A stretch of 64,000 nucleotides of DNA from assembly GCA_965221105.1 (NCBI GenBank), contig OZ244871.1, forward strand, positions 188,924 to 252,923. The letters run 5' to 3'. This DNA is from Pseudomonadales bacterium (GTDB taxonomy: Bacteria; Pseudomonadota; Gammaproteobacteria; Pseudomonadales; GM7GCV1). This document shows positions 240 to 21,307 of this stretch, piece by piece; positions within the stretch are counted from its first letter, which is position 1; each line of letters starts with the position of its first letter. Under the pieces are notes generated by a model. The model was not told the origin of the DNA. It saw only the letters and a program-made list of their open reading frames with translations, and made no database searches. Position numbers and translations under genes: made by a program.

Positions 240-950
240 TGCAGACACCCCAAATACAACTGCGTATTCCGGTAAAACTGGACAGTGATTCCGGCCTAAA
301 GTGGACAGCTGATCCGGTGTACAACGGACAGTCGTCGGAGCGCAGCGACGCGGGGGTGTCATTATGATCACAAGTGTCCAGTTTGGGTCAAGCCTGTGTG
401 GCGTTTTCGCATGGATTCTCCAGTCAGATGTATCTTGTGGGCGTTGTGGACGAGGCGATCCAGGATGGCATCGGCCAGGGTCGGATCATCGATGAGTTCA
501 TGCCAGTGATCGACCGGGAACTGGCTGGTAACCAGGGTGGAGTGCACACTGTAGCGGTCGTCCAACAGTTCGAGTACATCCCGCCGGTGTTCGTCCTTGA
601 GCCGGGTGCCGTCCTAATCGGTCAGATCATTCCAGTGAGCGATCATGCCGTGGAGTTTGGGACCGGTGGCGCACACTTTCAGACTATCCAAACCGGCGGG
701 GTCAGTCGGTGTCGTCATGGGCTCTCTCCGAGTGTGTCGGGTGCGACCTGTTGCGTACCATGCCCGATATCACTGCGGTCTACTCTGCCAGCGTGGCGGA
801 CCGTACCACAATGTTATGAGCCTTCTCAGGCAGTGGGAGTTTCAGCAAGGATTCGCGCTCCCGCTCAAAGACCTCGTGTACTGTCAGGTCAGAATCTTCC
901 CGGCACTTGGGGTGAAAATCACACCGGAGACAGATAGGACATACACCTGA
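240..950 (-). mobile_element. IS21-family remnant (terminal repeat region, istB stub, istA 3' stub)
   Basis: GGACAG occurs at 280, 303 and 326 (23-bp spacing), like the reiterated terminal repeats of IS21-type ends. An IstB C-terminal block is translated on the minus strand. There is no intact istA. Confidence 0.6.
368..720 (-). pseudogene. istB: IstB-like ATP-binding helper protein, internally deleted with an in-frame stop
   Basis: The minus-strand translation reads [104 protein letters not shown]. The Walker A/B core is missing. Confidence 0.65.
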
Positions 951-968: not shown

Positions 969-2210
969 TTACCGCTCAGTCTTCTTAAAGAGAATTGTTT
1001 TCAGGTGGTCCTCTGTCGATTCAAACACTGGTTCGTTTCGGTTTTCGCTTTTCATAAGAGGTACTACTTTTGTACGCACACCCATACCTCTTGCTTCGAC
1101 ATATCCAAAATCCTTCAATATATCAACAATGAGTACATTTCGAGGCGATCGCTGACCCGCTATCATTTTCTCAACAGTCATCGAGTTCTGCATGGCACCC
1201 GGGCTCATCACTTCGAGACGATCTGAGTAGCACGTAATCTCAATGTCCGTAAAGCGCGTCCAGTCACGATGGACGATTGCATTGACCACAATTTCCCTGA
1301 CTGCCTCAATCGGGTAGTGCCACATTTTTTCCCGCTTCATACCCTCATCAATAGTCTTGCTTTCCTCAGAGATAAACGGCTTCAGCCTTTGAATGACACC
1401 TTCGACAATGCCACCTGATACAAATTTTCGTTCACCTTCAGGTTCCAATTTCCAGTGACCAACCATTGGCATATCCAGTACCTCATCCAACACCGCCCGG
1501 TACGCTCTATCTGCTCCTTCAAATACCATCAATCTGACGCCAGCTTGTCTAAGATGTCTTCTGGGTCTATATCCAAACAAAAGTAATCCGGCCATTGTGC
1601 ATACAGGTGCAGCACCGACTTTATTGATGAGGAACCCTAAATCAAGCAGGCGGCGTATCCATCCCTCTTCAGAGGACGGGAAGCCTGGATCCTCCATAAC
1701 ATTTTTAATGTAATCCTCAACTCTTTCTATGTGCAGAGATTCAATAGAAGTACCTGAAACAGGAAGCGTTTCAGCATGAAGCATTCCCCCTACTTCAAAT
1801 AGGCGGGCCTGCTGCTCTCGGGTAGCCAATCTTGAAGTACTGCCAACTCGTATGAATATTTCTTCTCGATCAGAGTGGCGACGTACGTAGGGTTTAGATA
1901 TCCCTTGCTCAAAAGATACAATGGCAACCCGTTTAACATCGTCTACCTGAATTTCCTGATAGGACGGAAGAATCAGCGGATGAATCTTGCGTGCAACCAC
2001 ACCATCCATTATCCATTCTTCAAGGTCTTCTCTTTGAATTCCGCCGATTTCACCGTCATCTTCAACACCAAGGAGAATCATCCCACCACGGTGATTAACC
2101 ATAGCAACTATCTCCTTGGCTAGCTGCTCCGGCCGACAATCATCGCGCTTGAATTCCACACCAGAGTTCTCTCCATTACTGATGACTTCAAGCAAATCTG
2201 TCTTCAACAT
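969..2210 (-). CDS. AlbA_2 (Schlafen-like) + HATPase_c_4-like + wHTH protein (often annotated 'putative DNA-binding / RecG-like')
   Basis: ORF 969..2507 is trimmed to Met100 (ATG at 2210) because the upstream part overlaps the 3' end of the preceding gene. Motifs: NSGVEFKRDD...GGMILLGVEDDGEIGGI (N-terminal) and AVREIVVNAIVHRDW...LEVMSPG (C-terminal). It lies 25 bp downstream of 2236..4872 on the same strand. Confidence 0.8.
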   Translation of the reverse strand: MLKTDLLEVISNGENSGVEFKRDDCRPEQLAKEIVAMVNHRGGMILLGVEDDGEIGGIQREDLEEWIMDGVVARKIHPLILPSYQEIQVDDVKRVAIVSFEQGISKPYVRRHSDREEIFIRVGSTSRLATREQQARLFEVGGMLHAETLPVSGTSIESLHIERVEDYIKNVMEDPGFPSSEEGWIRRLLDLGFLINKVGAAPVCTMAGLLLFGYRPRRHLRQAGVRLMVFEGADRAYRAVLDEVLDMPMVGHWKLEPEGERKFVSGGIVEGVIQRLKPFISEESKTIDEGMKREKMWHYPIEAVREIVVNAIVHRDWTRFTDIEITCYSDRLEVMSPGAMQNSMTVEKMIAGQRSPRNVLIVDILKDFGYVEARGMGVRTKVVPLMKSENRNEPVFESTEDHLKTILFKKTER

Positions 2211-2235
2211 AAATGCACTCTGGTACTCGTAACGA

Positions 2236-4872
2236 CTAAAACCCGTATTTTTCCTTACGCTGCACAAACGCAGTTCTGCCGCCCTCGAGGATGTCTGCTG
2301 CACTTTCTCGAATATTTGCGAGGTCAATGGAGCCCTGATGCTCCGCTGGCAAGTTCGCTTTTGAATCCAACACACTAAAGACACCAATCCACTCCGCGTC
2401 TCCAAAGACTGGTATATTTGCATTGTGGGTGGCAAACAAAAATTGCCGCTTGAGTTTCGCATCCCGTAACTCGACGACAATACGGTCTGCAATAAACGCA
2501 TTATCAAGATTGTCTTCGGGCTGATCGAGAATCAAGGGATCTCTGTTGTCAAGAAGTAAAAGATGTAAGATTGCCGTGCACTGCTGACCCGTCGACACAC
2601 GACCAAGTAAGCGGTAATTTTCTTTCCCTGCATGCGATACATTCAATTCAATGTTCACTGTATCTTTCAGTTCAAGAGTCTCCAACTCATAGAGTTGCGC
2701 TGATGTACATCGATACAATGCAGCAGCGACTGAAGGGGTAATGCCCCAGCTCATGGCTTGCAGCACATCACTGCCTTCCCGGATTGCTTGTGCGAGGGAA
2801 ATCGGGCTCAAGTCCGCTGCCTTATCGACCCAAGCCAACCGTTTCTCACCGATGCCATCAAGCTTTTGCAGGAATCCTTTCAGTTTTGAGCGCTCCCCTT
2901 CAGGATCCATTGATATCCTCAATTTTCCAGCAAGGCGTTTATTCAAATTTTTAAGTACCACTTGCACTTCTTTCGTGCGTCTGGCGCGACTGTCTGACAA
3001 CTCTGCCAAAAGATTGGCTCGCTGCTGCAGAAGTTCCAGCTTCAGTTTCTGCTGATGCTCGAGTTGAGACCTCAAGGGTTTGGTTGCTTCAATTTCCTTC
3101 AGCAACCGCTGGTACGTCAGCCCTATTTCACGACCACTCTTCCCCTCCGACTCTGGCAGCTCCTTAAAGGCCTCTACTAACTCCCCTTCTCTCTGTTTAA
3201 TTGAGGTACAAAGCTTATCGCTCAAATTGTTAACGTCTTGCCGCGCTTCATTGAATCTCTCGTCTGTTGACTTCAGCGACATCTCCACTTTCTGCTTTAG
3301 GTTGGCCAAAACCTCTCTCAACTCCTTCAGCAGATCACGGTCAGGCAATCCGTCTAGTGCTTTATCACTCAGAAAAACCAAATCAGGCAAATCTTCACGC
3401 AGCTGCTGAAGTGACGCCCCCACACGATCAAGTTCTTCTTCAACCCGTTTCCGAAGATTTTTCTCACGCTCAAGCAGGGGTGTAATTTCCAATGTATTTT
3501 CCAGACCCAGCGCTTTACATTGTCGTGCCTGTTCTTCTAAACGTGGAAGCAGCGCTACCCTCATTTCAATTTCTTCGATAGCATCTTCTGCCTTCAACAA
3601 TTTGTCCTTGTTTGCCAGCAGTTTTTTTTGAATCTCTCCTAATTTCTCCTGACCTTTGGTTTTTTCGGCGGGCAAAAACCTTTCCAATAGCCGAAACTGG
3701 CTTTCACGATCCTGGGCTATTTCATATATTTCGTTCTGACCATAGATTTCAATCCTTGGGAGAAGATCCAATGGCCGAAAATTCGACACATTACCGCTAT
3801 CGTCCCGAACAATCGCGCCTTCCCCATAGCGGCGCGAAATTATGTACCGATTTCCATGAAAGGCTGAAGATCGAACCGTCAGTTCCACTCGTCCTCTTTC
3901 TTTCCCCAGATTCTCCTTCAGTATCTCCTCATGCTGTCTTCTGGCGTCCTTTCCCTTGGGGAGAGTTTCTAATGCATAACGTATACACTCGAGTAATGTA
4001 GATTTTCCTGTTCCTCGTCCGCCAATGACTGTATTCAGATGTTCGGAAAGTAGAATTTCAATCCCATCAAGATACCCGCCATCAAACCTGATACTTTCAA
4101 TTTTTGAGAAATACTCCTTCGGAACATCTGTATGAAGTCGAACCCGAGAATCCGGGTCCAGAAAAGCCATCTTGAACGACTCAAAACAGGGACGGGTCAT
4201 CTTAATCAGGCATGAGGCTTCAGGCTTCTTCAGGTCATCAGGCTTCGCTACGTCCTGTGCATTGATTATTACGATTGGATGCTCACGCTGATAAGCATCA
4301 TTTTCATTCATCACAATACTTTTAAATTTTTCTGGTAGCGCACTGACAGAGCCGGGTATTTGTGCAGCCTTCAGTTCTCGCGAACACCACACATGATTGA
4401 GCTTTTTTTTCAAAACACCACTGTCACTGGTAACGTGTGCTGCAAAGCAAAAACCACCTAAATTGTTAGCACACTGTATCAACTCTTCTGCACCTAAGCC
4501 CGATGGCCTTACTCCATCTTGTGGATCAACCAGGCCCAGCTTCCCAAGGTAGCGATTAAGTTGAGTTGTCGTTACATTTTCCGGGAACAGGCATACAAAA
4601 TGAGCTTTCTCTGTGGATGAGACCTCAAATCCCGGGAATACAGTAATGCCGCTTCCACTAAACAAATTGCGAATGTCATCTATAGTGTCCACATTGCCAT
4701 GATTTGCTAAACCCACGACCTTAATATCTTCCTGCAGACATATCTCCAGTAGCTGTTGGTTGTATTCTTTTTCTGACATTCCATGATCCTGGCCTCGATA
4801 AGATATGTATCCTGAGGGGTTTACTTGCAGGGCACATTTCCAGAACCGTGCAAAAGTGTGGCATTCCATCAT
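2236..4872 (-). CDS. PHP-like N-terminal domain fused to a Rad50/SbcC/SMC-like coiled-coil ABC ATPase
   Basis: 878 aa. The N-terminal ~270 aa show a PHP-like pattern (GLANHGN, FPGFEVSS, HFVCLFP, FAAHVTSDSG). This is followed by Walker A GGRGTGKST and ~300 aa of charged heptad-rich sequence. Then come the signature-like STGQQ, Walker B PLILDQPEDNLD, and FLFATHNANIPVFGDAE. Confidence 0.85.
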   Translation of the reverse strand: MMECHTFARFWKCALQVNPSGYISYRGQDHGMSEKEYNQQLLEICLQEDIKVVGLANHGNVDTIDDIRNLFSGSGITVFPGFEVSSTEKAHFVCLFPENVTTTQLNRYLGKLGLVDPQDGVRPSGLGAEELIQCANNLGGFCFAAHVTSDSGVLKKKLNHVWCSRELKAAQIPGSVSALPEKFKSIVMNENDAYQREHPIVIINAQDVAKPDDLKKPEASCLIKMTRPCFESFKMAFLDPDSRVRLHTDVPKEYFSKIESIRFDGGYLDGIEILLSEHLNTVIGGRGTGKSTLLECIRYALETLPKGKDARRQHEEILKENLGKERGRVELTVRSSAFHGNRYIISRRYGEGAIVRDDSGNVSNFRPLDLLPRIEIYGQNEIYEIAQDRESQFRLLERFLPAEKTKGQEKLGEIQKKLLANKDKLLKAEDAIEEIEMRVALLPRLEEQARQCKALGLENTLEITPLLEREKNLRKRVEEELDRVGASLQQLREDLPDLVFLSDKALDGLPDRDLLKELREVLANLKQKVEMSLKSTDERFNEARQDVNNLSDKLCTSIKQREGELVEAFKELPESEGKSGREIGLTYQRLLKEIEATKPLRSQLEHQQKLKLELLQQRANLLAELSDSRARRTKEVQVVLKNLNKRLAGKLRISMDPEGERSKLKGFLQKLDGIGEKRLAWVDKAADLSPISLAQAIREGSDVLQAMSWGITPSVAAALYRCTSAQLYELETLELKDTVNIELNVSHAGKENYRLLGRVSTGQQCTAILHLLLLDNRDPLILDQPEDNLDNAFIADRIVVELRDAKLKRQFLFATHNANIPVFGDAEWIGVFSVLDSKANLPAEHQGSIDLANIRESAADILEGGRTAFVQRKEKYGF

Positions 4873-5194: not shown

Positions 5195-5227
5195 CCTGAA
5201 GTCAGGTCACGAGGTCAGGATATCTGA
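5195..5227 (+). repeat. Right-end inverted repeat of the T-terminus IS family (solo end)
   Basis: CCTGAAGTCAGGTCACGAGGTCAGGATATCTGA is the reverse complement, with 3 changes, of the left end at 37917-37949. Confidence 0.5.
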
Positions 5228-5619: not shown

Positions 5620-5904
5620 ATTTTACTTCTTATGGTAATGGGTGGATGTTGATAGCCGTTTCGTGGTTCTTGGGCGGTTATGAGGTAGATTAAACCTAGT
5701 TGAAAATTTTACCGTAGTTCGAAGGATAGCAACATAGGAATGTATGAAAAGCTCCTGACCCGGGTGGTTCAATCCGGGCAATACTGTGGCCCTATTGGCA
5801 GCGGGCTCATTTGTCAATGTGCTGGTGTTAGGTGGCTCTACGCTAAAGAATTTTGATAGTATCATCGCTGTCTTCGGCCCATTGACGGGAGCCATGACGG
5901 GATT

Positions 5905-6552
5905 CTATTTTGCTAACCGTTCTGCTACACCAAATAATGCAGCACACAGAAATAAGGCTGATTTAAGCGGCGATTGAAATCGTTCCGCAAGTACTGGAAA
6001 GCCATATCCGGCTATGAGCCGTGGAAGGTTCGTTTCGTGAGCTCTCTCTGGATCAGCGAGCACACACTCCCCAACCCCAAGTCGACCCAATAACTCAGCC
6101 AGTACTGAGCCGGCACCACCCAACCCGATTATGCCGACACCTGTGCGTTTCAGCAGATCCTGGTCGGCATCCCCGAACAGACGGCTCTGGCGGTCATACA
6201 TTCCCACCGCGACTGCTCGCTCCTCCGGCCTGGGAAACAACTCCCGACGGCGACGACCTACAATGACCGCGTGGCTCAGCTGCCCACGCTCGCACCCCGG
6301 AAACCAAAGGTCTCCGGCTACTGCCGACCGCGCGAAGACCAGTGCGCCTACCGGCATGCCCCGTGCAATGTCGAGTAATGCTGGGTATCCCCTTTCATGC
6401 GACGCCATATCAGGTCCAGAAAACCCGACCGAATCAGCGCCGCCATGGTTGTGTATCGCAAGATAGGCAAGCCGACGATCTCTCGCTCGTAATATCCTGC
6501 CTTGTATGAATTCCGCCTTCAGCATTCGGCAGTCCCCTTTTGCCGGGCACAT
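5905..6552 (-). pseudogene. JAB/MPN-like peptidase fused to ThiF/E1-like adenylyltransferase, truncated at both ends
   Basis: HNHGGADSVGFSGPDMASHE (JAB-type H-x-H...S..D) is followed by YDRQSRLFGDADQDLLKRTGVGIIGLGGAGSVLAELLGRLGVGECVLADPERAHETNLPR (E1 Rossmann start). The sequence becomes unrelated after ~6020. A stop lies directly upstream of 6552. Confidence 0.55.
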
Positions 6553-7440: not shown

Positions 7441-7725
7441 TCCCTGCATCGCCACGCTGCTGCAGAGTGGTCTGTCGAAGCGGGCGATTGCCCGCGAGCT
7501 GGACCGGGATTTCGGCATGATCTCCCGTGAGGTCTCGCGCACCCCTGGGCAGCGGAGCGAGCGGCCCACGCAGGCCTAAGACAGGGTGGCGACCCGGCGC
7601 CATGATGCCTCGGCGGTTCCCTGGACGATGACGCCTGAGCGCTGGGGGTGGTTGAGGACAGGCTGCATGAGGGATGGAGTCCGGAACAAATCGCGGGCCG
7701 CTCATGGCCGGGTTTGCGGCTGATG
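7420..7725 (+). pseudogene. IS30-family transposase N-terminal fragment (frameshifted)
   Basis: NQKHLPCIATLLQSGLSKRAIARELDRDFGMISREVSR is an HTH typical of IS30 transposases. ..HEGWSPEQIAGR.. appears in another frame at 7660-7700. There is no DDE region. Confidence 0.55.
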
Positions 7726-7767
7726 CTATGATGATCACCCGCTGTGCTATTGTGCTATACTCGCCCG

Positions 7768-8016
7768 ATGACTGAGCATGAACTCTCGGAGCGGATCGCC
7801 CGACTGGAGGAACGCATGAAGACCAACCAGGCCGAGTATAAGACAGACATTGCGCGGCTGGCCGAAGCTATGGCCAGGCGCGACGCCGAATTGGCCAAAA
7901 ACGCACAGGACAACCAGCGGTGGACTGTCGGCTTTGGCATTGCACAGATCGTGTTGATGCTCTCAGTGCTGGGCGCAGGCTTCGCGTTCCTCGGTATCCT
8001 GATCAGCTCCCCGTAG
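7768..8016 (+). CDS. Small tail-anchored coiled-coil membrane protein, paralogue 1 (XhlA/DUF1640-like architecture)
   Basis: MTEHELSERIARLEERMKT... plus the C-terminal TM segment WTVGFGIAQIVLMLSVLGAGFAFLGILI. The start is set at the conserved ATG, not the GTG of the ORF track. Confidence 0.6.
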   Translation: MTEHELSERIARLEERMKTNQAEYKTDIARLAEAMARRDAELAKNAQDNQRWTVGFGIAQIVLMLSVLGAGFAFLGILISSP

Positions 8017-8708
8017 AGCACTCAACAATAATGGTGCACTGCGCTGCGGATTCTATCAGCAGCACCCAGCCATCTTGTATTTCTATTTGACACGCATGCA
8101 CAGCAGCCAGTGACTATGCATAACAGCAGGGTACTGATTGTGGGCACACCTCTCACAAAGAACCCGTGATTACGCCAATTTATATCAACCTTGATGGGGG
8201 CAGCGCCTCCAGAGGCTGGCTCTCCTGTTACGAATTCACTTCAGAGCGGTGAGTGCAATCTGATCAGCGCGGCACAGTGTGGATACCAAAGTGCCCAGTG
8301 CGGCGTAAAACATATATGACCCGCCCCGGTATGTCCTTATCAGTTGATCGACCTCGACGGTGAATACCCTCAGGGTCTCCATCGGGTCTGTGAACTTCTC
8401 AGGTTCTCACTCTGGCGGTGTGCCGTGTCTGCCATCACGATTCAGTACTCTCACGCACCCCTGGTGGGTTCAACTCGTATGCGCTGCTCTACGCTGCGCT
8501 ATCTGATTGATACTCTGGGTCGGGAACCGGGTTCCCGATCCCCCTATGCCTCGGCAGTTCCCTGGACGATGACGCCTGAGCGCTGGGGGTGGTTGAGGAC
8601 AGGCTGCATGAGGGATGGAGTCCGGAACAGATCGCGGGCCGCTCATGGCCGGGTTTGCGGCTGATGCTATGATGATCACCCGCTGTGCTATTGTGCTATA
8701 CTCGCCCG

Positions 8709-8936
8709 ATGACTGAGCATGAACTCTCGGAGCGGATCGCCCGACTGGAGGAACGCATGAAGACCATGCAAGCCAAGAATGAAAGCGCGCTCGACCGGCT
8801 GCGGGCCGACATATCAAAAAACGCGCAGGACAACCAGCGGTGGACTGTCGGCTTTGGCATTGCGCAGATCGTGTTGATGTTCTCGATGCTGGGCGCGGGC
8901 TTCGCGTTCCTCGGTATCCTGATCGGCTCCCCGTAG
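8709..8936 (+). CDS. Small tail-anchored coiled-coil membrane protein, paralogue 2
   Basis: It has the same N-terminus and TM segment as paralogue 1. The middle is replaced (MQAKNESALDRLRADIS). Confidence 0.6.
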   Translation: MTEHELSERIARLEERMKTMQAKNESALDRLRADISKNAQDNQRWTVGFGIAQIVLMFSMLGAGFAFLGILIGSP

Positions 8937-9730
8937 AGCACTCAACAATAATGGTGCACTGCGCTGCGGATTCTATCAGCAGCGCCCAGCCATCTTGTAT
9001 TTCTATTTGACACGCATGCACAGCAGCCAGTGACTATGCATAACAGCAGGGTACTGATTGTGGGCACACCTCTCACAAAGAACCCGTGATTACGCCGATT
9101 TATATCAACCTTGATGGGGGCAGCGCCTCCAGAGGCTGGCTCTCCTGTTACGAATTCACTTCAGAGCGGTGAGTGCAATCTGATCAGCACGGCACAGTGT
9201 GGATACCAAAGTGCCCAGTGCTGCGTAAAACATATGTGACCCGCCCCGGTGTGCACGAGCACTTTTCGATCTGGAAGAGACGGGCTGCTGCCATATATCC
9301 GACCTGTCAACGGGCTCTCTACGCCCCTGGCCCTGACGGAGAGTCGCACCGGTGTGTCCTTATCAGTTGATCGACCTCGACGGTGAATACCCTCAGGGTC
9401 TCCATCGGGTCTGTGAACTTCTCAGGTTCTCACTCTGGCGGTGTGCCGTGTCTGCCATCACGATTCAGTACTCTCACGCACCCCTGGTGGGTTCAACTCG
9501 GATGCGCTGCTCTACGCTGCGCTATCTGATTGATACTCTGGATCGGGAACCCGGTTCCCGATCCCCCTGCCCCGCCGGTTCCCTGGAAGATGATGCCTGA
9601 GCGCTGGGCGGTGGTTGAGGACGGGCTGCGTGAGGGATGGAGTCCGGAACAGATCGCGGGCCGCTCATGGCCGGGTTTGCGGCTGATGCTATGATGATCA
9701 CCCGCTGTGCTATTGTGCTATACTCGCCCG

Positions 9731-9946
9731 ATGACTGAGCATGAACTCTCGGAGCGGATCGCCCGACTGGAGGAACGCATGAAGACCAACCAGGCCGAGT
9801 ATAAGACAGACATTGCGCGGCTGGCCGAAGACATCGCCAAACGCGACAAGGCGAACATCCAATGGATGATCGGTATGGCGGTGGCTGGCGTGTTGCTGAT
9901 TATCGGTGTCCTGGGGTTTTTGATCCGCTTTCCAACGCCTCACTAG
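9731..9946 (+). CDS. Small tail-anchored coiled-coil membrane protein, paralogue 3 (divergent TM tail)
   Basis: It has the same N-terminus. The tail is DIAKRDKANIQWMIGMAVAGVLLIIGVLGFLIRF. Confidence 0.55.
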   Translation: MTEHELSERIARLEERMKTNQAEYKTDIARLAEDIAKRDKANIQWMIGMAVAGVLLIIGVLGFLIRFPTPH

Positions 9947-9986
9947 GTATCAGCTCTCGGAGCGGATTGCCCGACTGGAGGAACGC

Positions 9987-10208
9987 ATGCAGACCAACCA
10001 GGCCGAGTATAAGACAGACATTGCGCGGCTGGCCGAAGCTATGGCCAGGCGCGACGCCGAATTGGCCAGGCGCGACACCGAATTGGCCAAAAACGCGCAG
10101 GACAACCAGCGGTGGACTGTCGGCTTTGGCATTGCACAGATCGTGTTGATGCTCTCAGTGCTGGGCGCAGGCTTCGCGTTCCTCGGTATCCTGATCAGCT
10201 CCCCGTAG
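9987..10208 (+). CDS. Small membrane protein paralogue 4, 5'-truncated copy abutting paralogue 3
   Basis: Homology starts at ..LSERIARLEERMQT (9952) with no start codon before Met 9987. It carries the internal duplication ARRDAELARRDTEL. Confidence 0.4.
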   Translation: MQTNQAEYKTDIARLAEAMARRDAELARRDTELAKNAQDNQRWTVGFGIAQIVLMLSVLGAGFAFLGILISSP

Positions 10209-10919
10209 AGCACTCAACAATAATGGTGCACTGCGCTGCGGATTCTATCAGCAGCGCCCGGCCATCTTGTATTTCAATGTAACACACATGCACAGCAGCC
10301 AGTGGCTGAGCTTGACAACAGGGTGCCGATCTGTGGGCACACCTCTCACAGAGAACCCGTGATTACGCCAATTTATATCAACCTTGATGGGGGTAGCGCC
10401 TCCAGAGGCTGGCTCTCCTGTTACGAATTCACTTCAGAGCGGTGAGCGCAATCTGATCAGCACGGCACAGTGTTGGATACCGAAGTGCCCAGTGCGGCGT
10501 AGAGTGCATCAGAATAAACCTAATCAAAAACCAACTTTTCAGCTATAGGCCGAGAAAAAATCAGCGTCGCCATCATCTGGCTTCCACAACCTGCCCTCCA
10601 TCAAGCAGGCTCACTGGCGATACACAGCAGTGCACTTCGGACTGGAGGCGGAGTTACAAAGACACACAGTCGATGTACGGGAATGAACTACCGGTGAACC
10701 CAATGTCTTTAAGGGTGAGACGAGTGAGCCGAATTGAAAACATGTGACTTGGTTTAACAGTGTAGCTGATTGAATAGCTGACCTACATATATGCCTTTCT
10801 GTTGACCCTAAACACACTATTCCGTATCGATTGATTCAATGAAGCGGAGATGAAGACAGGCTTTCATTTCTGATTTGGCGCTGCATAAAACTGAGGGTCC
10901 GTTGCCAAACCAACGCCCA

Positions 10920-14827: not shown

Positions 14828-15304
14828 TCAGATGTCCTGACCTCGTGGTCTGACTTTCGGCATCAGACATTCCGATATCTCTCTGATGACGTGGCTCTGT
14901 GTGTAGTTTTTGGGTGTGCAGTGCTCGGTTTCTATGTGTCAACATACTATGGTGGACACTGTGAAAAATCAGCCATGCATTCACTGCCCTTCAGGCACCC
15001 AGATTGGCATGTCCGGGTTCTCCTCTGCGTGTGTCGACGACATCACCCAGCTCTCCTCCCTCCGACCCTTCAGCATCCACGACGAGGCTGACCGCACCCT
15101 CTACCGTACCGACATGACCGTGCAGACCACCGACCTCCTGACCACATGTGACGTTAGCCCGACCACCATTCGCACCGGGCGACGGCCAAGTTGCGCATGC
15201 GATACGTGCTGCCTGAAAACGGGTGAACACCGGTGTATGCGGTGTATGATCTCCCACCCACCCAAACAAACGAACAGAAAAAGGCCCGAGGTCAGGACAT
15301 CTGA
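14828..15304 (+). mobile_element. 477-bp non-autonomous (MITE-like) member of the T-terminus family with both ends
   Basis: The left end is TCAGATGTCCTGACCTCG. The right end is its perfect 18-bp inverse (CGAGGTCAGGACATCTGA). The interior keeps ~45 codons homologous to the transposase N-terminus at 38065 (..LPF..TQIG.S.FS...PF..HDE.DR..), joined to the right-end ~220 bp that is shared with 31837-32040. Confidence 0.6.
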
Positions 15305-15311
15305 GACTGGT

Positions 15312-17210
15312 ATGAAAGAGGCTGGCATTCAACTACGCCCGATCAGCACCCTGCTGACCGATGCCGCTGGTCAACCGGCACGCTACTGGATACCCGCCTA
15401 TCAACGCGGCTACCGCTGGACACCACTCCAGGTTACCCAACTGCTAGATGACATCTGGGAGTTTATACAGCACTGTGAACGCATTGATGAACCTCCGGAG
15501 GCGTTCTATCGCCTTCAGCCACTGGTCATCAAGGAACGGCCTGGTGGGGAATATGAGGTGGTGGATGGTCAGCAACGCCTGACCACGCTGTATATCCTGC
15601 TGACCTATTTAGGTGACATGCTCGGTGAACTGGGCAAGGTGCGTTACCAGATTCATTTCGAGACCCGTGGCGAGGCCAACGAACCATTTCTAGGGGACAT
15701 CGACCTGGACCGTGCTGATGAGAATGTGGATTTTTTCCATATCTGTAACGCTCGGAAGGCCATAGATAAGTGGTTTGCCGAGCGGGACAAGATGCATAGA
15801 CGCAAGCTGCTACAACATGTGCTCAACGATGACGACATCGGGCACAACGTCAAGGTGACCTGGTTCGAGTTGGAAGACCAGGATGACCCAGTTGCAGCAT
15901 TCACACGCCTGAATGTTGGCAAGATTCCGCTCACCAATGACGAGTTGATTCGAGCATTATTCCTGCGGCGCGCAGCAGCGAAGGATAAGGATGAGGAGCA
16001 TGGACTCGCTCTGCGTATTGCCCACGAATGGGACCAAATGGAAAAGGCGTTACAAGACGATTCCTTCTGGTATTTTTTGAGCAATGAGCAAGCACCAGGA
16101 CACAATCGGATCGGATTGATCTTTGAACTGGTCGCATCGGATGGACTCAACGACCTGCTGAAGCAGGATGCATACGGCGTTTTCCATGTCTTCAACGAAC
16201 GCCGCGAAGATCAGGAGGTGGAGCAGGAATGGCTCGCGGTTAAGCAAACCTTCATGGCGCTGGAAGAGTGGTATGAGGATCGGGAATTATTCCATGTGGT
16301 GGGTTTCCTGATCCATCAAGGCGAGGTAATCAATGACCTGTTAAAGTCCACCCAGGAGTGCCGCAAGGGCGGTCTGGCCCGTGATCTACGTCGCCGGGCC
16401 TTTGCAAAATCCATTGGAGGCAAACTGGATGATCTGGACCCGCAGGAATTAAGGGAGACTATTCAAAAACGCTGTGAGACCATCAGCTACGGCAGCGAGT
16501 CTGGGGCTATCCGCACCATTCTGCTGCTCTTCAACCTGGCCACCCTGTTAGATAACCCACGCTCCAATATGCGCTTCCAGTTCGATAGCTTCAAGAGCAA
16601 GGCGTGGGACATCGAGCATGTGCGCTCTGTCGAGGTGCGCAGCCCGGCACGCCACAATGAACGCAAGGTCTGGCTCAGCCACTGTCGGGATTACATATAC
16701 TCGTGTCGAGGCTACATAAACTCAAGCGAGGATGATGAAAAACTGCTTACGGATATCGATGGGTTTCTGGAGTTGACGGACGGGGACGAAGCCGAAGCCG
16801 CGTTTGACCCCCTCTATGAACGTGTGCTGGAGTATTTCAAGGAAAATGGCGAGGGCGGCGAGGACGGACTTGCCAACCTGACCTTGCTCGACGAGAGCAC
16901 AAACCGCAGCTATAAAAACTCCGTGTTCGCAGTAAAACGGCAACGCCTCCTGGAACTCGATAAATCGGGTATCTTTGTGCCACTTTGTACCCGTAATGTT
17001 TTCCTCAAGTGCTACAGCACTCAGGTGGACAATATCTTGTTCTGGCGCAAGCAGGATGCTGAGGCGTACCTGGAGGAGATCATCGACACCCTGACCCGCT
17101 TCTTTTTACAGAAGGGGGGATTCAGGCATGAGCGAACAGGGCGCGCAACTGATTTTCAGCGAGCTGCTTGCGCGGCATGGCCGTATCCGGGTGCCACTGA
17201 TTCAGCGTGA
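15312..17210 (+). CDS. GmrSD-like type IV restriction candidate (DUF262 N-terminal + DUF1524/His-Me C-terminal)
   Basis: IPAYQRGYRW and DGQQRLTT (DUF262) plus WDIEHVRS...NLTLLDESTNRSYKNSVF (DUF1524-type). The start is set at ATG 15312 because the ORF upstream of it is MITE sequence. Confidence 0.8.
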   Translation: MKEAGIQLRPISTLLTDAAGQPARYWIPAYQRGYRWTPLQVTQLLDDIWEFIQHCERIDEPPEAFYRLQPLVIKERPGGEYEVVDGQQRLTTLYILLTYLGDMLGELGKVRYQIHFETRGEANEPFLGDIDLDRADENVDFFHICNARKAIDKWFAERDKMHRRKLLQHVLNDDDIGHNVKVTWFELEDQDDPVAAFTRLNVGKIPLTNDELIRALFLRRAAAKDKDEEHGLALRIAHEWDQMEKALQDDSFWYFLSNEQAPGHNRIGLIFELVASDGLNDLLKQDAYGVFHVFNERREDQEVEQEWLAVKQTFMALEEWYEDRELFHVVGFLIHQGEVINDLLKSTQECRKGGLARDLRRRAFAKSIGGKLDDLDPQELRETIQKRCETISYGSESGAIRTILLLFNLATLLDNPRSNMRFQFDSFKSKAWDIEHVRSVEVRSPARHNERKVWLSHCRDYIYSCRGYINSSEDDEKLLTDIDGFLELTDGDEAEAAFDPLYERVLEYFKENGEGGEDGLANLTLLDESTNRSYKNSVFAVKRQRLLELDKSGIFVPLCTRNVFLKCYSTQVDNILFWRKQDAEAYLEEIIDTLTRFFLQKGGFRHERTGRATDFQRAACAAWPYPGATDSA

Positions 17211-19506
17211 CTATGCACAGGGACGGAGCGATCAGGAAGAAGTTAGAGAGGGATTCCTCGCAGCATTGCATGATGCGCTTTTGCTGCCTCCCGAACATGA
17301 AAAACTGCCAATCAATCTCGATTTCGTCTACGGTAGTGTCGAAGGTGAAAATCCGACCCGCTTCCAGCCGCTGGATGGCCAGCAACGGCTAACCACGCTT
17401 TTCTTGCTGCATTGGTATCTAGCATGGCGCGACGATTGCAGTGAGATGTTCCGCAAGATTTTCGTCGTTGGAAACCATTCGAGGTTTAGTTACGAGGTTC
17501 GCACCAGCAGCACGGAGTTTTTCGATGAATTGGTGAGATTCTTCCCGGACCAGGCACCGGAAAATGTGGAGCACCTTGGCGCGCTCCTGCAAGACCAGCC
17601 GTGGTACTACCGAAGTTGGCGACTCGACCCCACGGTACAATCCGCGCTGGTGATGCTCGACGCCATCCATGCGCGCTTCAAGGACACGCATAATCCGAGA
17701 CTCTATGCGCGGCTGACCGACTCTGAGCAGCCAGCGATCACATTCCAGTTGCTCGACCTCAACAATTTCGACCTCTCGGATGATCTCTATATAAAGATGA
17801 ATGCACGCGGCAAACCGCTGACGCCCTTTGAAACCTTCAAAGCTCGCTATGAGGAGATTCTTAAAGTCCAGTCCTCAAACGAGACTTACGAGCTGGACGG
17901 ACAGTCTGTTTCTCTCGCCAAATATTTCGCAAGGCGCATGGATACGCGCTGGGCGGATTTTTTCTGGCGGTTTCGGGATCCAGACAGCCACGTTTTCGAC
18001 GCAGCGGTAATGAATGTGTTTCGGGTGGTCATTCTTATTACGCGACCCACAAAAAGTTCGACCTTCTCGGAAGATGTCACCAAACTTCGATCCCAAGACC
18101 GGAAAAATAGTTACCATTTTTTCCATGAGCCTGGCTGGCTGGACGTTTCATTCGCCGAAACACTAGTCACCCTGCTGGACAAATGGAGCGGTCAACCGGG
18201 TGGGTTCGCGCCACTTCTACCGGATGGGCGATATTTTGACGAGGGGGCAGTTCTTGAGAAAGTTTTGAAGAAACCCAGCTCGCTTGGCTACGATGAACTT
18301 GTTCAACTCGCGGCCTATGTGCAGTTCCTCAGAACGCAGGAAGGTGCTCCCGATCCGAAGGTATTTCAGGAATGGGCACGGGTGGTGTCCAACCTGTCTG
18401 TGAACACGGACTACAACCGGGCATCAGACTTTGAGCGCAGCCTCTCATCGCTTGCAGACCTTGCGCCACACATGGTCACAGTACTGGATCATTTGGCTGA
18501 TCCCAAAACAGAAATCAAGGGATTCTTCCAGGAGCAGGTCAGGGAAGAAAGAATAAAGGCGCGCCTTCTGCTGGAAAACGATAGCTGGAGGCCCCTGATC
18601 GACGAGGCGGAAGCGCATGGCTACTTCCAAGGTCAGATCGGTTTCCTGTTGAAGTTTGCCGGGATCGAGACCGACTCTGCTAACACCCTGCAATACCAGG
18701 CCGCTTTTTCTGACTACCTCAGCAAGGCGAAAGCGATGTTTGGCGACGGGGGTTTGAATAGTCTCCCGGATTACAAATGGGAGCGTGCATTACTGTCACT
18801 CGGCAACTATCTATTATTGGCTAGCAGTCAGAATTCATCGCTACTGGTCAATCGACAATCGGATCAGGCTAGTTGGAAGCGGTTGTTACGAGATGCGCCT
18901 TTAGGGAAACCGCAAGGAAAGGTACTTCTCAAACTGTGGGACTCCCTTTCAGGAACGTCAGACATCAGCAAGCAGTTGGATGGAGTCATTGCAGGCGTGT
19001 CAGGACTGGATGCATGGCGAGCGGCTCTGGTGGAATCTCCCGCCGCGATTGATTACTGCGGCAAACGCATGATTCGTCATGTAGAAAAAGATCGTGTGTA
19101 TCTGCTTAGCAAGGTTCGCACCAGTGGTGCTCATGTAGAGCTATTCAGCTACTGCTTTTATCTTAATGCAATAGTCCCTTCTCTTAACCAAGGGTTGTAT
19201 AAGGCTTTACGACCGGATTATTTTCAAAGTAACTCAGCGGCTAAAGAACCTAGTATTCAATTACATTTTGATATCTCAGATCAGCCATGTGTGATTGATA
19301 TTGTGTACGAGTCCGGTAGGTATCAGGTATGCATAAATTTTAAGGATGACCCTCCAGATGCTTTGTCCTGGCTGTTGAAAGATTTGAAGCCAGATGGAAC
19401 ACAAAATAGCTTTTGTACTTACTACCCGGCCGATGCGCTCGAAAAGTTGATCAGAGACCTTGACCAACGGTTAGCATGTATGAGTGGGGAAATATGTGAA
19501 GACTAA
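17128..19506 (+). CDS. Large DUF262-domain protein without a recognisable DUF1524 nuclease domain
   Basis: [11 protein letters not shown] and [16 protein letters not shown] are present. The strong RBS AAGGGGGGA lies 7 nt before the ATG. It overlaps the upstream gene by 83 nt. The C-terminal ~450 aa are unassigned. Confidence 0.8.
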
Positions 19507-20245: not shown

Positions 20246-21307
20246 TCACCTGAAGGAGAAAGGGCGTACAAACTTCCCGTTCTGATCGTAAATGTCATTG
20301 AGTTGAAGCCTGAACGACCTTGCAATCCACTGCAAAACTGTGACTTCTATCTGCGCTTCAAATTCGGATTTTTCATAAACCTCCCCGAACTCAAGTAACT
20401 CACTGCTTGCAGGGTAGCCAAAAATACCCTCACCCCAATCATCTTCATACGAGTATATTGTTAACCCTCGGGCAGAAAGGATTTGGACGCGAAAACCCAT
20501 GTGCCGGAATGGCAGAAGTTGCTCCCACACCTGCCTAAACCACGCCATACTAGAAACAACGCGTTCCGCAAGCTCTGTGTATCGGATCAGCTTGGTAGCG
20601 CCATGTTGATTTCCGCGTCGGTCTTTGGAAGCTTCGGCGAGCCGCTCAGACTCACGATTTAGCGCATAGACAACTTCACAGTGTCCTGAGTTGAAAAGAT
20701 GAAAAGAGTACCCGTCAGGTCCGCTTAACTCTCCAATACGCTCATTACAGATGCCGTGCTCTGATGGTGTGGTGTCATAGCGATTAAGACCGCCTGGATA
20801 CCTATGGCCAGCTAATTGTGCGGCCTCCAGAGTTTGCTGACCAAGTTCGCCAAGAACATCTATCAGGCCAGACTCTATGTCTAAAGGAGTGAGTGAGAAG
20901 CAGATACCCAGCCCCCCTTCGCAGAAAAGCTTCCAATACTGGTTTCGGTCTTCCAATAACCGGGAATTATCGATCTTGGCAACCGCAATGTTGCCGCGAG
21001 CGAGCATTTCGGAAACCCATCGCTCGTGTTCAGACTTGGCGGACCTTAATTTATCAGAAGGCCAATCAGCCTCATTCTTGTCGATCTCTCTATGATGTGT
21101 GGGACAGAGAAGAATTAAATTCGAATACTCATCCCTTTCGTCCGACGGCAAATCATCGCTTCCACGCGGACCATTCGTCTGTCTGCCAACGATATGTGCC
21201 ATTTCACCGACCGTTTCCCGATCACCACTTGGGGTAAGCTCAAGTTTGCATAGTGCGCAGCGGTTTCCTGATCGCCCCCATAGCATTTTTAGATCGCGTT
21301 CCTTCAT
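20246..21307 (-). CDS. HNH endonuclease domain protein with an unassigned ~240-aa C-terminal domain
   Basis: CALCKLEL...GEMAHIVG...NLILLCPTHHREIDKN lies in the first 90 aa. The ORF is intact at 353 aa. Confidence 0.75.
   Translation of the reverse strand: MKERDLKMLWGRSGNRCALCKLELTPSGDRETVGEMAHIVGRQTNGPRGSDDLPSDERDEYSNLILLCPTHHREIDKNEADWPSDKLRSAKSEHERWVSEMLARGNIAVAKIDNSRLLEDRNQYWKLFCEGGLGICFSLTPLDIESGLIDVLGELGQQTLEAAQLAGHRYPGGLNRYDTTPSEHGICNERIGELSGPDGYSFHLFNSGHCEVVYALNRESERLAEASKDRRGNQHGATKLIRYTELAERVVSSMAWFRQVWEQLLPFRHMGFRVQILSARGLTIYSYEDDWGEGIFGYPASSELLEFGEVYEKSEFEAQIEVTVLQWIARSFRLQLNDIYDQNGKFVRPFSFR

What the first reader, a model, noticed from the sequence alone, without database searches (positions are those of the whole stretch)
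969..4872. Two-gene operon: PHP-like/Rad50-like ATPase plus a Schlafen-type AlbA_2/HATPase_c_4 protein, a candidate uncharacterised anti-MGE module
Seen in sequence: an 878-aa ORF joins a PHP-like N-terminal domain to a Walker A (GGRGTGKST), a ~300-aa coiled-coil insert, STGQQ, a Walker B (LILDQPEDNLD) and ATHNANI. This is a nuclease-type domain fused in one chain to an SbcC/Rad50-like ATPase. At the position where PHP domains normally carry their first D-x-H-x-H metal motif, the protein reads C-A-L-Q-V-N-P. The phosphoesterase site may therefore be altered or inactive. A 413-aa AlbA_2 + HATPase_c_4 + wHTH protein follows 25 bp downstream. The pair is AT-richer than its flanks and is bracketed by an IS21 remnant (240-950) and a solo IS end (5195-5227). 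Inference: the architecture (sensor/DNA-binding partner plus SMC-like nuclease) resembles the logic of Lamassu/Wadjet/Gabija-type systems without matching any of them by motif.
Basis: partly seen in the sequence, partly recalled or inferred. Interest (0 to 1): 0.68.

Follow-up and report, generated by a model that had tools for sequence, protein, structure and literature searches.

The report
PHP-SMC ATPase plus Schlafen defence cassette
These two genes form a widely shared, horizontally mobile cassette (a Ppl-like ATPase whose nuclease-type pocket has been rewired, plus a Schlafen-type nuclease) that sits inside other anti-phage operons, so it is very probably an untested two-gene immune module rather than anything housekeeping.

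Summary
ORF 2236-4872(-) (878 aa) and ORF 969-2210(-) (413 aa) are intact, 25 nt apart, and AT-richer than their flanks.

**Protein 1** is not unnamed. It scores above the cut-off for the NCBIfam 'TrlF family AAA-like ATPase'. It is a distant paralogue of the single-gene anti-phage exonuclease Ppl. It combines a PHP fold with an SMC/Rad50-like ABC head and a coiled coil.

Ppl and plasmid TrlF proteins carry D-x-H-x-H at the first PHP motif. This whole clade carries invariant A-L-Q-V-N, and it has also lost the last His of the fold. The domain is nevertheless as conserved as the ATPase head, so it has been remodelled rather than decayed.

**Protein 2** is a prokaryotic Schlafen with a GHKL-like module (HATPase_c_4). 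Its E-x4-E-x-K nuclease motif is conserved in about 100% of partner proteins.

**Linkage and context.** The two genes are adjacent in 74 of about 78 species loci, with a median gap of 9 nt, and they co-diverge (r = 0.91). The pair is found inserted inside BREX-1, type I R-M, Wadjet and BREX-related operons.

I found no paper or PADLOC model describing the pair. Verdict: a new two-gene variant of a known kind (Ppl/TrlF plus pSlfn). Its function is inferred, not tested.

The parts
2236..4872 (-). Gene 1, 878 aa: TrlF-family protein with a PHP-like domain, an SMC/Rad50-like ABC ATPase head and a coiled coil
   Evidence: NCBIfam NF045780 gives 561 bits against a cut-off of 350, covering residues 8-877. 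The best PADLOC hit is Ppl at 1.2e-41. The AF2 model has pLDDT 89.4. Foldseek finds MukB, Smc, JetC, Rad50 and LmuB heads and PHP folds.
4108..4872 (-). PHP-like (beta/alpha) barrel, residues 1 to about 255, with a remodelled metal site: Q16, N18, H58, E83, H91, H146, D207, A209
   Evidence: Foldseek hits 3o0f, EndoQ 5zb8, RNase AM 7ug9 and Pol III alpha PHP at E 3e-4 to 7e-3. The NCBIfam CehA/McbA metallohydrolase domain hits at 3.6e-4. The domain is as conserved as the N-terminal ATPase half.
4819..4833 (-). A-L-Q-V-N (residues 14-18), replacing the D-x-H-x-H first PHP motif
   Evidence: Invariant in 20 of 20 close homologues and in 66 of the 68 full-length 50%-identity representatives that have this region. 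Ppl and enterobacterial plasmid TrlF read D-F-H-N-H here.
3997..4023 (-). Walker A GGRGTGKST (residues 284-292)
   Evidence: Read from the sequence. G284, G287, G289, K290 and S291 are invariant in 84 sequences.
2935..3669 (-). Antiparallel coiled-coil arm (residues about 402-646). No CxxC zinc hook is visible at the apex.
   Evidence: DSSP on the AF2 model shows long helices 402-439, 463-493, 512-569 and 580-646. This is the least conserved region.
2413..2595 (-). C-terminal half of the ABC head: signature STGQQ (760-764), Walker B/D-loop LILDQPEDNLD (780-790), H-loop ATHNANI (814-820)
   Evidence: Invariant columns.
2211..2235 (.). 25-nt intergenic spacer within the operon
   Evidence: In 118 related loci the gap has a median of 9-11 nt and is 40 nt or less in about 98%.
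969..2210 (-).
   Evidence: Pfam PF04326 scores 74.5 bits and PF13749 scores 65.9 bits. PDB 3lmm matches at 6.7e-12. An orthologue lies immediately downstream of TrlF in 74 of about 78 loci.
2148..2171 (-). Schlafen nuclease motif E14-x4-E19-x-K21 (ENSGVEFK)
   Evidence: Conserved in 102, 101 and 103 of 103 partner proteins. The motif is defined as catalytic in bioRxiv 10.1101/2025.07.24.666596.
368..565 (-). IstB (IS21 helper ATPase) C-terminal fragment flanking the cassette
   Evidence: PF01695 at E 1.5e-18, profile positions 179-235 only.

Best explanation
A self-contained two-gene anti-phage/anti-MGE cassette.

Shown:
- Gene 1 is a TrlF-family protein and a paralogue of the defence protein Ppl. 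It has an intact SMC/Rad50-type ABC ATPase head, a coiled-coil arm and an N-terminal PHP-fold domain.
- In this clade three canonical PHP metal ligands are replaced (H to Q16, H to N18, last H to A209; also D to A14). The pocket nevertheless stays under strong purifying selection.
- Gene 2 is a Schlafen-type nuclease with an intact catalytic motif, fused to a GHKL-like module.
- The two genes are co-transcribed neighbours, are inherited as a unit, and are repeatedly found inside BREX-1, type I R-M, Wadjet-II and BREX-related operons.

Inferred mechanism:
1. The TrlF dimer is the ATP-dependent sensor. Its head and coiled coil engage foreign DNA, probably free 3' ends or replication intermediates.
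2. Its rewired PHP pocket binds a DNA end or nucleotide instead of cutting it. In Ppl the same domains are reported to be gated by NTPs and 3'-OH ends.
3. Sensing is passed to the Schlafen partner, which cleaves tRNA or other RNA and stops growth of the infected cell.
4. Within BREX, R-M or Wadjet operons the cassette acts as a second layer when the host system is evaded. This is analogous to PARIS.
For: - Family and fold.
- Active-site remodelling is clade-wide and not decay.
- Partner catalytic motif is conserved: with the motif definition.
- Synteny holds in 74 of about 78 GTDB species loci spanning at least 12 phyla. P2 identity is 53-64% among full-length orthologues.
- In a more distant clade about 45 of 80 metagenome loci also keep the partner.
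- The gap has a median of 9-11 nt.
- P1 and P2 distance matrices correlate at r = 0.91 (0.75 within the close clade; Mantel 0 of 999 permutations).
- Embedding in other operons: PglX|pair|PglZ-BrxL with overlapping stop and start codons, HsdS|pair|HsdR, helicase|pair|DUF1156-DUF499, JetA-JetB|pair|JetC-JetD. In total 32 of 80 loci, and 21 of the 42 loci of 14 kb or more.
- Window context: AT-richer than the flanks, IS debris, and two GmrSD-like genes plus an HNH gene within 15 kb.
- Literature: Ppl is a regulated ssDNA 3'-5' exonuclease (PMC12904381). pSlfn proteins are phage-activated tRNases. Schlafen-HisK-wHTH genes were noted inside BREX loci of at least 1017 taxa (PMC12839542).
Against: - There is no experimental test of this pair or of any TrlF protein.
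- The direction of signalling (TrlF senses, Schlafen executes) is inference.
- Gln and Asn can still ligate Mg/Mn, so residual PHP catalysis is not excluded.
- Canonical H-x-H TrlF relatives also occur with the Schlafen partner (L139, L141, L159, L090). One Q-V-N sub-clade (W[IV]RAALQVNP) lacks the partner. Loss of the His ligands is therefore not simply compensated by the partner.
- No physical interaction could be modelled.
- The window copy is not inside a BREX or R-M operon.
- Promoter and terminator scans were uninformative.
Confidence: 0.6

Rival explanations
1. TrlF is the effector nuclease, a Ppl-like exonuclease using a modified PHP site. The Schlafen/HATPase_c_4 protein is only a DNA-binding sensor or a transcriptional regulator of the operon, as BrxR and CapW are in other systems.
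For: Ppl, the nearest characterised relative, is itself the nuclease. H58, E83, H91, H146 and D207 are retained and the pocket is highly conserved. Canonical H-x-H versions also carry the partner.
Against: Three metal ligands are replaced by non-ionisable isosteres across the clade. The partner's nuclease motif E-x4-E-x-K is conserved in about 100% of orthologues, which is unexpected for a pure regulator. Gene 2 lies downstream and is tightly coupled, not divergently placed upstream as typical regulators are.
Confidence: 0.2
2. The pair is not autonomous. It is an obligate accessory of modification-based or SMC-based systems (BREX, type I R-M, Wadjet), for example an added nuclease layer that works only with the host system's recognition machinery. 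On this reading the window copy is an orphaned remnant.
For: The genes overlap or abut PglX and PglZ in the same orientation. The pair occupies the same internal slot in 23 BREX loci, 6 type I R-M loci and 3 Wadjet loci. The window copy is flanked by IS and gene fragments.
Against: The host operons are mechanistically unrelated (BREX, R-M, Wadjet, DUF1156/DUF499), which argues for a guest cassette rather than a dedicated subunit. Half of the long loci show none of these systems within 8 kb. Both window ORFs are intact and about 98-99% identical to a second genome.
Confidence: 0.15
3. The pair is a housekeeping DNA-repair factor of the RecN/SbcC type with an associated regulator, as some database names suggest ('DNA repair ATPase RecN', 'DNA repair protein').
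For: Source names are listed. The head is structurally similar to RecN, RecF and Rad50 heads.
Against: The pair was detected in only 430 of 185,579 species genomes. About 55% identity is shared across unrelated phyla, which implies horizontal transfer. The pair sits in defence operons. Its composition is atypical for the window and it has IS flanks.
Confidence: 0.03

Closest known systems
Ppl (single-gene anti-phage system; NCBIfam NF042955, PADLOC PDLC02208)
   Same: The domain order and size are the same: an N-terminal PHP fold, then an ABC ATPase split by a coiled coil, about 880-890 aa. Ppl is the best PADLOC hit (1.2e-41). It is also found in defence and plasmid contexts.
   Different: The score is 183 bits against an equivalog cut-off of 1000, with about 23-25% identity. 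Ppl keeps D-x-H-x-H and D-x-H, whereas this clade has A-L-Q-V-N and D-V-A. Ppl acts alone, whereas this protein has a near-obligate Schlafen partner.
TrlF family AAA-like ATPase (NCBIfam NF045780), as annotated on enterobacterial plasmids
   Same: The score is above the family cut-off over the full length. PGAP uses this name for close homologues.
   Different: The plasmid TrlF proteins examined (K. pneumoniae, E. coli) have a canonical PHP D-x-H-x-H motif and are solo genes. The window protein belongs to a distinct Q-V-N sub-clade that usually carries the partner. I found no publication on TrlF.
Prokaryotic Schlafens (pSlfn), HisKinase/HTH class
   Same: Gene 2 has the Slfn domain with E-x4-E-x-K and a histidine-kinase-like ATPase module. 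This is the commonest pSlfn architecture (34% + 19%) and is enriched near defence genes. The same architecture is reported inside BREX loci.
   Different: The pSlfns shown experimentally to defend were single proteins with DUF262 or Ig-like sensor domains. Here the presumed sensor is a separate TrlF protein. The pairing is not mentioned in the papers I could read.
PARIS (AriA ABC ATPase + AriB Toprim tRNase)
   Same: The logic is the same only by analogy: an ABC ATPase partner plus a tRNA-targeting nuclease, frequently embedded in BREX and R-M operons as a back-up layer.
   Different: The families differ. AriA is an OLD-type ABC without PHP or a long coiled coil, and AriB is a Toprim. The hit to AriA is generic (about 1e-6). 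The trigger for the present pair is unknown.
Lamassu (LmuB SMC + LmuA effector) and Wadjet (JetABCD)
   Same: The SMC-like head with coiled coil resembles LmuB and JetC structurally. The two-component sensor-plus-effector idea is shared.
   Different: LmuB models hit only at 1e-7 or weaker, and there are no LmuA/LmuC or JetA/B/D equivalents. In three loci the pair sits inside a complete Wadjet operon as an additional guest.

Membership tests
TrlF family AAA-like ATPase (NCBIfam NF045780) | Whole-protein HMM score at or above the curated cut-off (350 bits), full-length match | tested here: met
   561.1 bits, E 7.4e-168, residues 8-877 on profile positions 3-944.
TrlF family AAA-like ATPase (NCBIfam NF045780) | PHP-fold N-terminal domain plus ABC ATPase with coiled-coil insert | tested here: met
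   Foldseek PHP hits, SMC/Rad50 heads and a secondary-structure map of the pLDDT 89 model.
Ppl anti-phage protein (NF042955 / Gao 2020 system) | Equivalog HMM score of 1000 bits or more | tested here: not met
   182.7 bits. The PADLOC Ppl model scores 140.8 bits in two stretches.
Ppl anti-phage protein (NF042955 / Gao 2020 system) | Catalytic PHP metal motifs (D-x-H-x-H ... D-x-H) | tested here: not met
   The window clade has A-L-Q-V-N and D-V-A where Ppl has D-F-H-N-H and D-A-H.
Ppl anti-phage protein (NF042955 / Gao 2020 system) | Single-gene system | tested here: not met
   A conserved downstream partner is present in 74 of about 78 loci. The Ppl locus examined has no such partner.
Prokaryotic Schlafen nuclease (pSlfn) | Slfn/AlbA_2 domain above the Pfam gathering score | tested here: met
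   PF04326 at 74.5 bits against 25.3.
Prokaryotic Schlafen nuclease (pSlfn) | Catalytic E-x4-(E/D)-x-K motif | tested here: met
   E14, E19 and K21 are present, and conserved in 102, 101 and 103 of 103 orthologues. The motif is defined.
Prokaryotic Schlafen nuclease (pSlfn) | Phage-triggered tRNA cleavage / abortive infection | not testable with these tools
   This needs wet-lab assays.
Lamassu | LmuB SMC plus LmuA effector (with or without LmuC) | tested here: not met
   The best LmuB hit is 1.2e-7. Gene 2 hits no LmuA model.
Wadjet | JetA kleisin, JetB, JetC SMC, JetD Toprim | tested here: not met
   Neither protein hits a Jet model (gene 1: none among the 25 of 35 families shown). Complete JetABCD operons flank the pair as separate genes in L019, L026 and L039.
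Gabija / PARIS (OLD-type ABC + Toprim) | OLD-family ABC ATPase with a Toprim nuclease (fused or as a partner) | tested here: not met
   GajA and AriA hit only at about 1e-6 over P-loop segments. There is no Toprim.
SbcCD / Mre11-Rad50 | Rad50/SbcC with a CxxC zinc hook and an Mre11/SbcD phosphoesterase partner | tested here: not met
   No CxxC is present in the coiled-coil apex (sequence). The partner is a Schlafen, not a calcineurin-like phosphoesterase.
BREX type 1 core | Is one of BrxA/B/C, PglX, PglZ or BrxL | tested here: not met
   Neither protein hits a BREX model (same caveat on the 25 of 35 families shown for gene 1). The pair is an insert between PglX and PglZ in 23 of 80 loci. No BREX gene was found in the ORFs examined between window positions 1 and about 26,600.

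The most novel reading that the evidence does not exclude
In this clade the PHP domain has become a pseudo-nuclease. The isosteric H-to-Q, H-to-N and H-to-A changes would keep the pocket able to read a 3' DNA end or a nucleotide but unable to cut it. This would convert a one-protein exonuclease defence (Ppl-like) into a two-protein relay, in which an SMC-like DNA sensor licenses a Schlafen tRNase. The cassette would act as a portable 'second line' that plugs into BREX, type I R-M, Wadjet and related operons. It would be a prokaryotic counterpart of DNA-activated Schlafen immunity (SLFN11-like).
Probability: 0.3. Interest if true: 0.78.

Novelty: new variant of a known kind. Interest (0 to 1): 0.6.

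Why it matters
If the pair defends, three things follow.

1. It would give the first function for the commonest class of bacterial Schlafens (the HisK/HTH type). That class was catalogued but was not among the architectures shown to defend on their own. The result would show that they can need a separate sensor.

2. It would document how a nuclease-ATPase immune protein (Ppl type) evolves into a sensor by rewiring its catalytic pocket. Natural intermediates are on hand: D-L-H-x-H, D-L-Q-V-H and A-L-Q-V-N.

3. It would add a widespread guest cassette to the list of back-up layers carried inside BREX, R-M and Wadjet operons. This affects how those systems' phenotypes are interpreted, and current PADLOC-type annotation would mislabel or miss it.

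Tried and rejected
- Literature on 'TrlF': no relevant paper. A search for Schlafen + PHP + ATPase + phage returned one unrelated paper.
- Krishnan et al. 2020 (ABC ATPase classification, NAR 48:10045) may describe Schlafen-linked ABC systems, but it is not held. Prior in-silico description cannot be excluded.
- PDB sequence search with protein 1 gave no hit, and no Ppl structure surfaced in Foldseek.
- The first AF2 model, built from 20 close homologues, was poor (pLDDT 69). It was replaced by a model from an 84-sequence alignment (pLDDT 89.4).
- Hypothesis 'loss of H-x-H is strictly coupled to gain of the Schlafen partner': rejected. H-x-H relatives with the partner exist (L090, L139, L141, L159), and a Q-V-N sub-clade without the partner exists (L135-138, L142, L146, L148, L153).
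- Phage carriage: only one close relative was found in IMG/VR (L172, 52%), so the cassette is not typically phage-borne.
- The plasmid DNA search for the window region gave only trivial IS hits.
- Promoter/terminator scans did not exceed shuffled controls, and Rfam found nothing in the window.
- The 'solo IS end' at 5195-5227 has no supporting repeat.
- DefenseFinder itself could not be run. Only the PADLOC-DB 2023 models were available.

Full report
**1. What is in the sequence**

On the minus strand, ORF 2236-4872 encodes 878 aa. The next ORF is best started at ATG 2210 and runs 969-2210, encoding 413 aa. The spacer is 25 nt. A GAGG lies 8-11 nt before the first ATG.

They are invariant in homologues:
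- CALQVNP, residues 13-19
- GGRGTGKST, 284-292
- STGQQ, 760-764
- LILDQPEDNLD, 780-790
- ATHNANI, 814-820

The segment has GC 0.44-0.50, against 0.52-0.62 on both sides. The left flank holds a C-terminal IstB fragment at 368-565 (PF01695, 1.5e-18). The right flank holds a truncated ThiF-like ORF at 5905-6552.

The proposed 'solo IS end' at 5195-5227 found no support. The only IS difference against a 98.8%-identical 2.8-Mb contig is an insertion of about 2.06 kb, carrying a DDE_Tnp_1 transposase gene, at window position about 5830. The window lacks it.

**2. Identity of gene 1**

Pfam sees only generic ABC/SMC models (AAA_21, AAA_23, SMC_N). NCBIfam places the protein in the 'TrlF family AAA-like ATPase', with 561 bits against a cut-off of 350 and a full-length match. 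It scores well below cut-off for 'Spaf_1101 family' (191 against 475) and 'anti-phage protein Ppl' (183 against 1000). In PADLOC-DB the best model is Ppl (1.2e-41). Everything else (mad3, LmuB, AriA, GajA, PtuA, PDC-M49A) is generic P-loop similarity.

A first AlphaFold model from 20 close homologues was poor. It still gave Foldseek hits to SMC/MukB/LmuB/Rad50 heads. For the N-terminus it gave hits to PHP-fold enzymes:
- BAD_1165 phosphoesterase
- EndoQ
- RNase AM
- the Pol III alpha PHP domain
- TM0559

A second model from an 84-sequence alignment is confident (pLDDT 89.4, pTM 0.76). It matches MukB, Smc, JetC, Rad50, cohesin, LmuB, RecF and RecN heads at E 1e-12 to 1e-6. Its secondary structure shows an eight-strand beta/alpha barrel in residues 9-225, a split ABC head, and a helical arm of about 245 residues. 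The PHP call and the Rad50/SMC-like call both hold.

**3. The altered PHP site**

I aligned the window protein with an E. coli plasmid Ppl, two enterobacterial plasmid TrlF proteins, and 70 full-length representatives of 50%-identity clusters found with the N-terminal 265 residues. That search found 894 clusters at E <= 1e-3 and 133 at E <= 1e-30.

Ppl and the K. pneumoniae plasmid TrlF read W-x-K-F-D-F-H-N-H-T-P, D-H, G-V-E, H, A-H and S-D-x-H-H. This is the canonical PHP ligand set.

The window clade reads W-K-C-A-L-Q-V-N-P, (D/N)-H, G-F-E, H, A-H and N-A-x-D-V-A. Thus D goes to A14, H to Q16, H to N18 and the last H to A209. H58, E83, H91, H146 and D207 remain.

A-L-Q-V-N is present in 66 of the 68 representatives that have this region, down to 29% identity. 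Rare intermediates also occur:
- A-L-H-V-N-P (P0216, P0244)
- A-L-H-I-H-P (P0246)
- A-D-L-Q-V-H-T-P (L154)

The PHP-like domain is as conserved as the N-terminal half of the ATPase. Mean pairwise identity is 0.67 against 0.72 in close homologues, and 0.39 against 0.40 in the broad set.

The pattern of isosteric, non-ionisable replacements under strong constraint argues for a remodelled pocket rather than decay.

**4. Identity of gene 2**

Pfam gives SLFN_AlbA_2 (residues 14-129) and HATPase_c_4 (322-406). The only PDB relative by sequence is the uncharacterised 3lmm.

A 2025 preprint shows that prokaryotic Schlafens are anti-phage tRNases with a catalytic E-x4-(E/D)-x-K motif. It also shows that Slfn-HisKinase (34%) and Slfn-HisKinase-HTH (19%) are the commonest architectures. 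Gene 2 reads E14-NSGV-E19-F-K21. In 103 TrlF-linked partners these three residues are conserved in 102, 101 and 103 sequences. Gene 2 is thus most likely an active nuclease, not only a DNA-binding partner.

**5. Are the two genes a unit?**

A scan of one genome per GTDB species found 430 genomes with a relative of gene 1. The best 80 loci come from many groups:
- Desulfobacterota
- Alpha-, Beta-, Gamma- and Zetaproteobacteria
- Spirochaetes
- Bacteroidota
- Verrucomicrobiota
- Acidobacteriota
- Nitrospirota
- Cloacimonadota
- Riflebacteria
- Muiribacteriota

In 74 of these loci a gene 2 orthologue (mostly 53-64% identity) lies immediately downstream on the same strand. One of these (L057) is split and one (L059) is cut by the contig end. 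Two loci end before the position can be read, and four lack the partner.

The gap has a median of 9 nt and is 40 nt or less in 99% of cases. P1 and P2 pairwise distances correlate at r = 0.91 over 103 pairs. Within the close clade r = 0.75, and no Mantel permutation out of 999 reached it.

A metagenome scan seeded with a distant clade (about 30-40% identity to the window protein) still finds the partner adjacent in about 45 of 80 loci. These include relatives with a canonical D-L-H-x-H PHP motif (L139, L141, L159). One sub-clade (W[IV]RAALQVNP) lacks the partner. The pairing is therefore older than the active-site change, and the two are not strictly coupled.

Enterobacterial plasmid TrlF and Ppl genes examined are solo.

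**6. Genomic company**

The pair is repeatedly found inside other defence operons, in the same orientation.

| Host operon | Position of the pair | Evidence |
|---|---|---|
| BREX type 1 | between PglX and PglZ-BrxL, with overlapping stop/start codons | L082-L084; 23 of 80 loci |
| Type I R-M | between HsdS and HsdR | L085; 6 of 80 loci |
| DUF1156/DUF499 BREX-related system | between a SNF2/NOV_C helicase and DUF1156-DUF499 | L090 |
| Wadjet type II | between JetA-JetB and JetC-JetD | L019, L026, L039 |

Half of the loci of 14 kb or more (21 of 42) show one of the BREX, type I R-M or Wadjet hosts. A 2026 survey independently reports Schlafen-HisK-wHTH genes inside BREX and BREX-related loci of at least 1017 taxa. 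It does not mention a PHP-ABC partner.

In the window itself the pair is not inside such an operon. It lies among IS and gene fragments. Two adjacent GmrSD-like genes, an HNH gene and an AAA_14/DUF4143 ATPase lie 10-20 kb away. Only one close relative was found in IMG/VR viral contigs.

**7. How it most likely works**

Shown:
- An intact ABC ATPase of the SMC/Rad50 structural type with a coiled coil.
- A conserved but ligand-depleted PHP pocket.
- A partner with an intact Schlafen nuclease motif and a GHKL-like module.
- Tight operonic coupling, co-inheritance, and residence in defence operons.

Known from the literature: E. coli Ppl is described as an ssDNA 3'-5' exonuclease. Its PHP and NTPase domains are inhibited by bound NTPs, and it responds to 3'-OH ends (PMC12904381). 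pSlfns cleave tRNA on phage sensing. PARIS is an ABC-plus-tRNase pair embedded in BREX and R-M operons.

Inferred: the TrlF dimer senses foreign DNA or nucleotide status, in an ATP-dependent way, through its head, arm and rewired PHP pocket. It then activates the Schlafen partner, which cleaves RNA and arrests the infected cell. As a guest in BREX, R-M or Wadjet operons the cassette provides a second layer of defence.

I put about 0.8 on 'two-gene defence cassette' and about 0.35 on the specific sensor-to-effector polarity.

Rivals:
- TrlF remains the nuclease and gene 2 is a regulator or sensor (0.2).
- The pair is an obligate accessory of the host system (0.15).
- The pair is a housekeeping repair factor (0.03).

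**8. Comparison with known systems, and novelty**

Gene 1 is a member of the NCBIfam TrlF family. It fails every membership test for Ppl except architecture. It is not Lamassu, Wadjet, Gabija, PARIS or SbcCD. Gene 2 is a member of the pSlfn HisK/HTH class.

Several things are new relative to what I could find:
- the near-obligate pairing of the two genes
- the clade-wide Q-V-N remodelling of the PHP site
- the cassette's habit of nesting in four unrelated defence operons

No PADLOC (2023) model set describes the pair. No paper in the searchable library links PHP-ABC proteins with Schlafens.

Caveat: Krishnan et al. 2020 on ABC ATPases in conflict systems could not be read and may contain an in-silico description.

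I rate this a new variant of a known kind, with moderate-to-good interest (0.6). It is a well-supported candidate that can be tested directly. It is not a categorically new mechanism.

Noticed in passing
window 7605-10500: Direct repeat units of about 0.92-1.0 kb, 93-99% identical. Each carries an 83-90 aa ORF (MLLCYTRPMTEHELSERIARLEERMK...) with a coiled-coil-like N-terminus and a hydrophobic C-terminus. Further copies are scattered in the related contig L081. Their nature is unknown.
   Followed up: no
window 14910-17210(+), 17128-19506(+), 20246-21307(-), 23914-25095(-): Two adjacent GmrSD_N (DUF262)-type proteins (type IV restriction-like), an HNH_2 endonuclease and an AAA_14/DUF4143 ATPase. 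This is a defence-island-like stretch 10-20 kb from the cassette.
   Followed up: partly
window 5905-6552(-) and about 5827-5836: A truncated ThiF/E1-like ORF; only profile positions 1-63 of ThiF are matched. In a 98.8%-identical genome an element of about 2.06 kb carrying a DDE_Tnp_1 transposase gene is inserted next to it at window position about 5830. The overlap between the two alignment blocks is 10 bp.
   Followed up: partly
L019, L026, L039 (for example L026 1988-14508): The TrlF-Schlafen pair is inserted between jetB and jetC of otherwise complete type II Wadjet operons. I have not seen a guest cassette inside Wadjet described elsewhere.
   Followed up: partly
L085 10001-15787: A variant arrangement inside a type I R-M operon. 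A DUF4268 gene lies between TrlF and a longer (649 aa) Slfn-HATPase_c_4 protein.
   Followed up: no
L154, L090 (P0246), P0216, P0244: Natural intermediates of the first PHP motif: A-D-L-Q-V-H-T-P, A-L-H-I-H-P and A-L-H-V-N-P. L154 and L090 are seen with the Schlafen partner. They could order the steps of active-site remodelling.
   Followed up: partly
L081 15206-16312: In the 98%-identical genome a SoFic-type Fic protein (Fic, Fic_N, SoFic-like_C) lies about 1.4 kb beyond the cassette, where the window sequence diverges (window position below 261).
   Followed up: no
L166, L170: Canonical H-x-H PHP-ABC relatives that lack the Schlafen partner. They are followed instead by an AAA_21-like ATPase gene of 400-430 aa, which suggests alternative partners in other branches of the family.
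   Followed up: no
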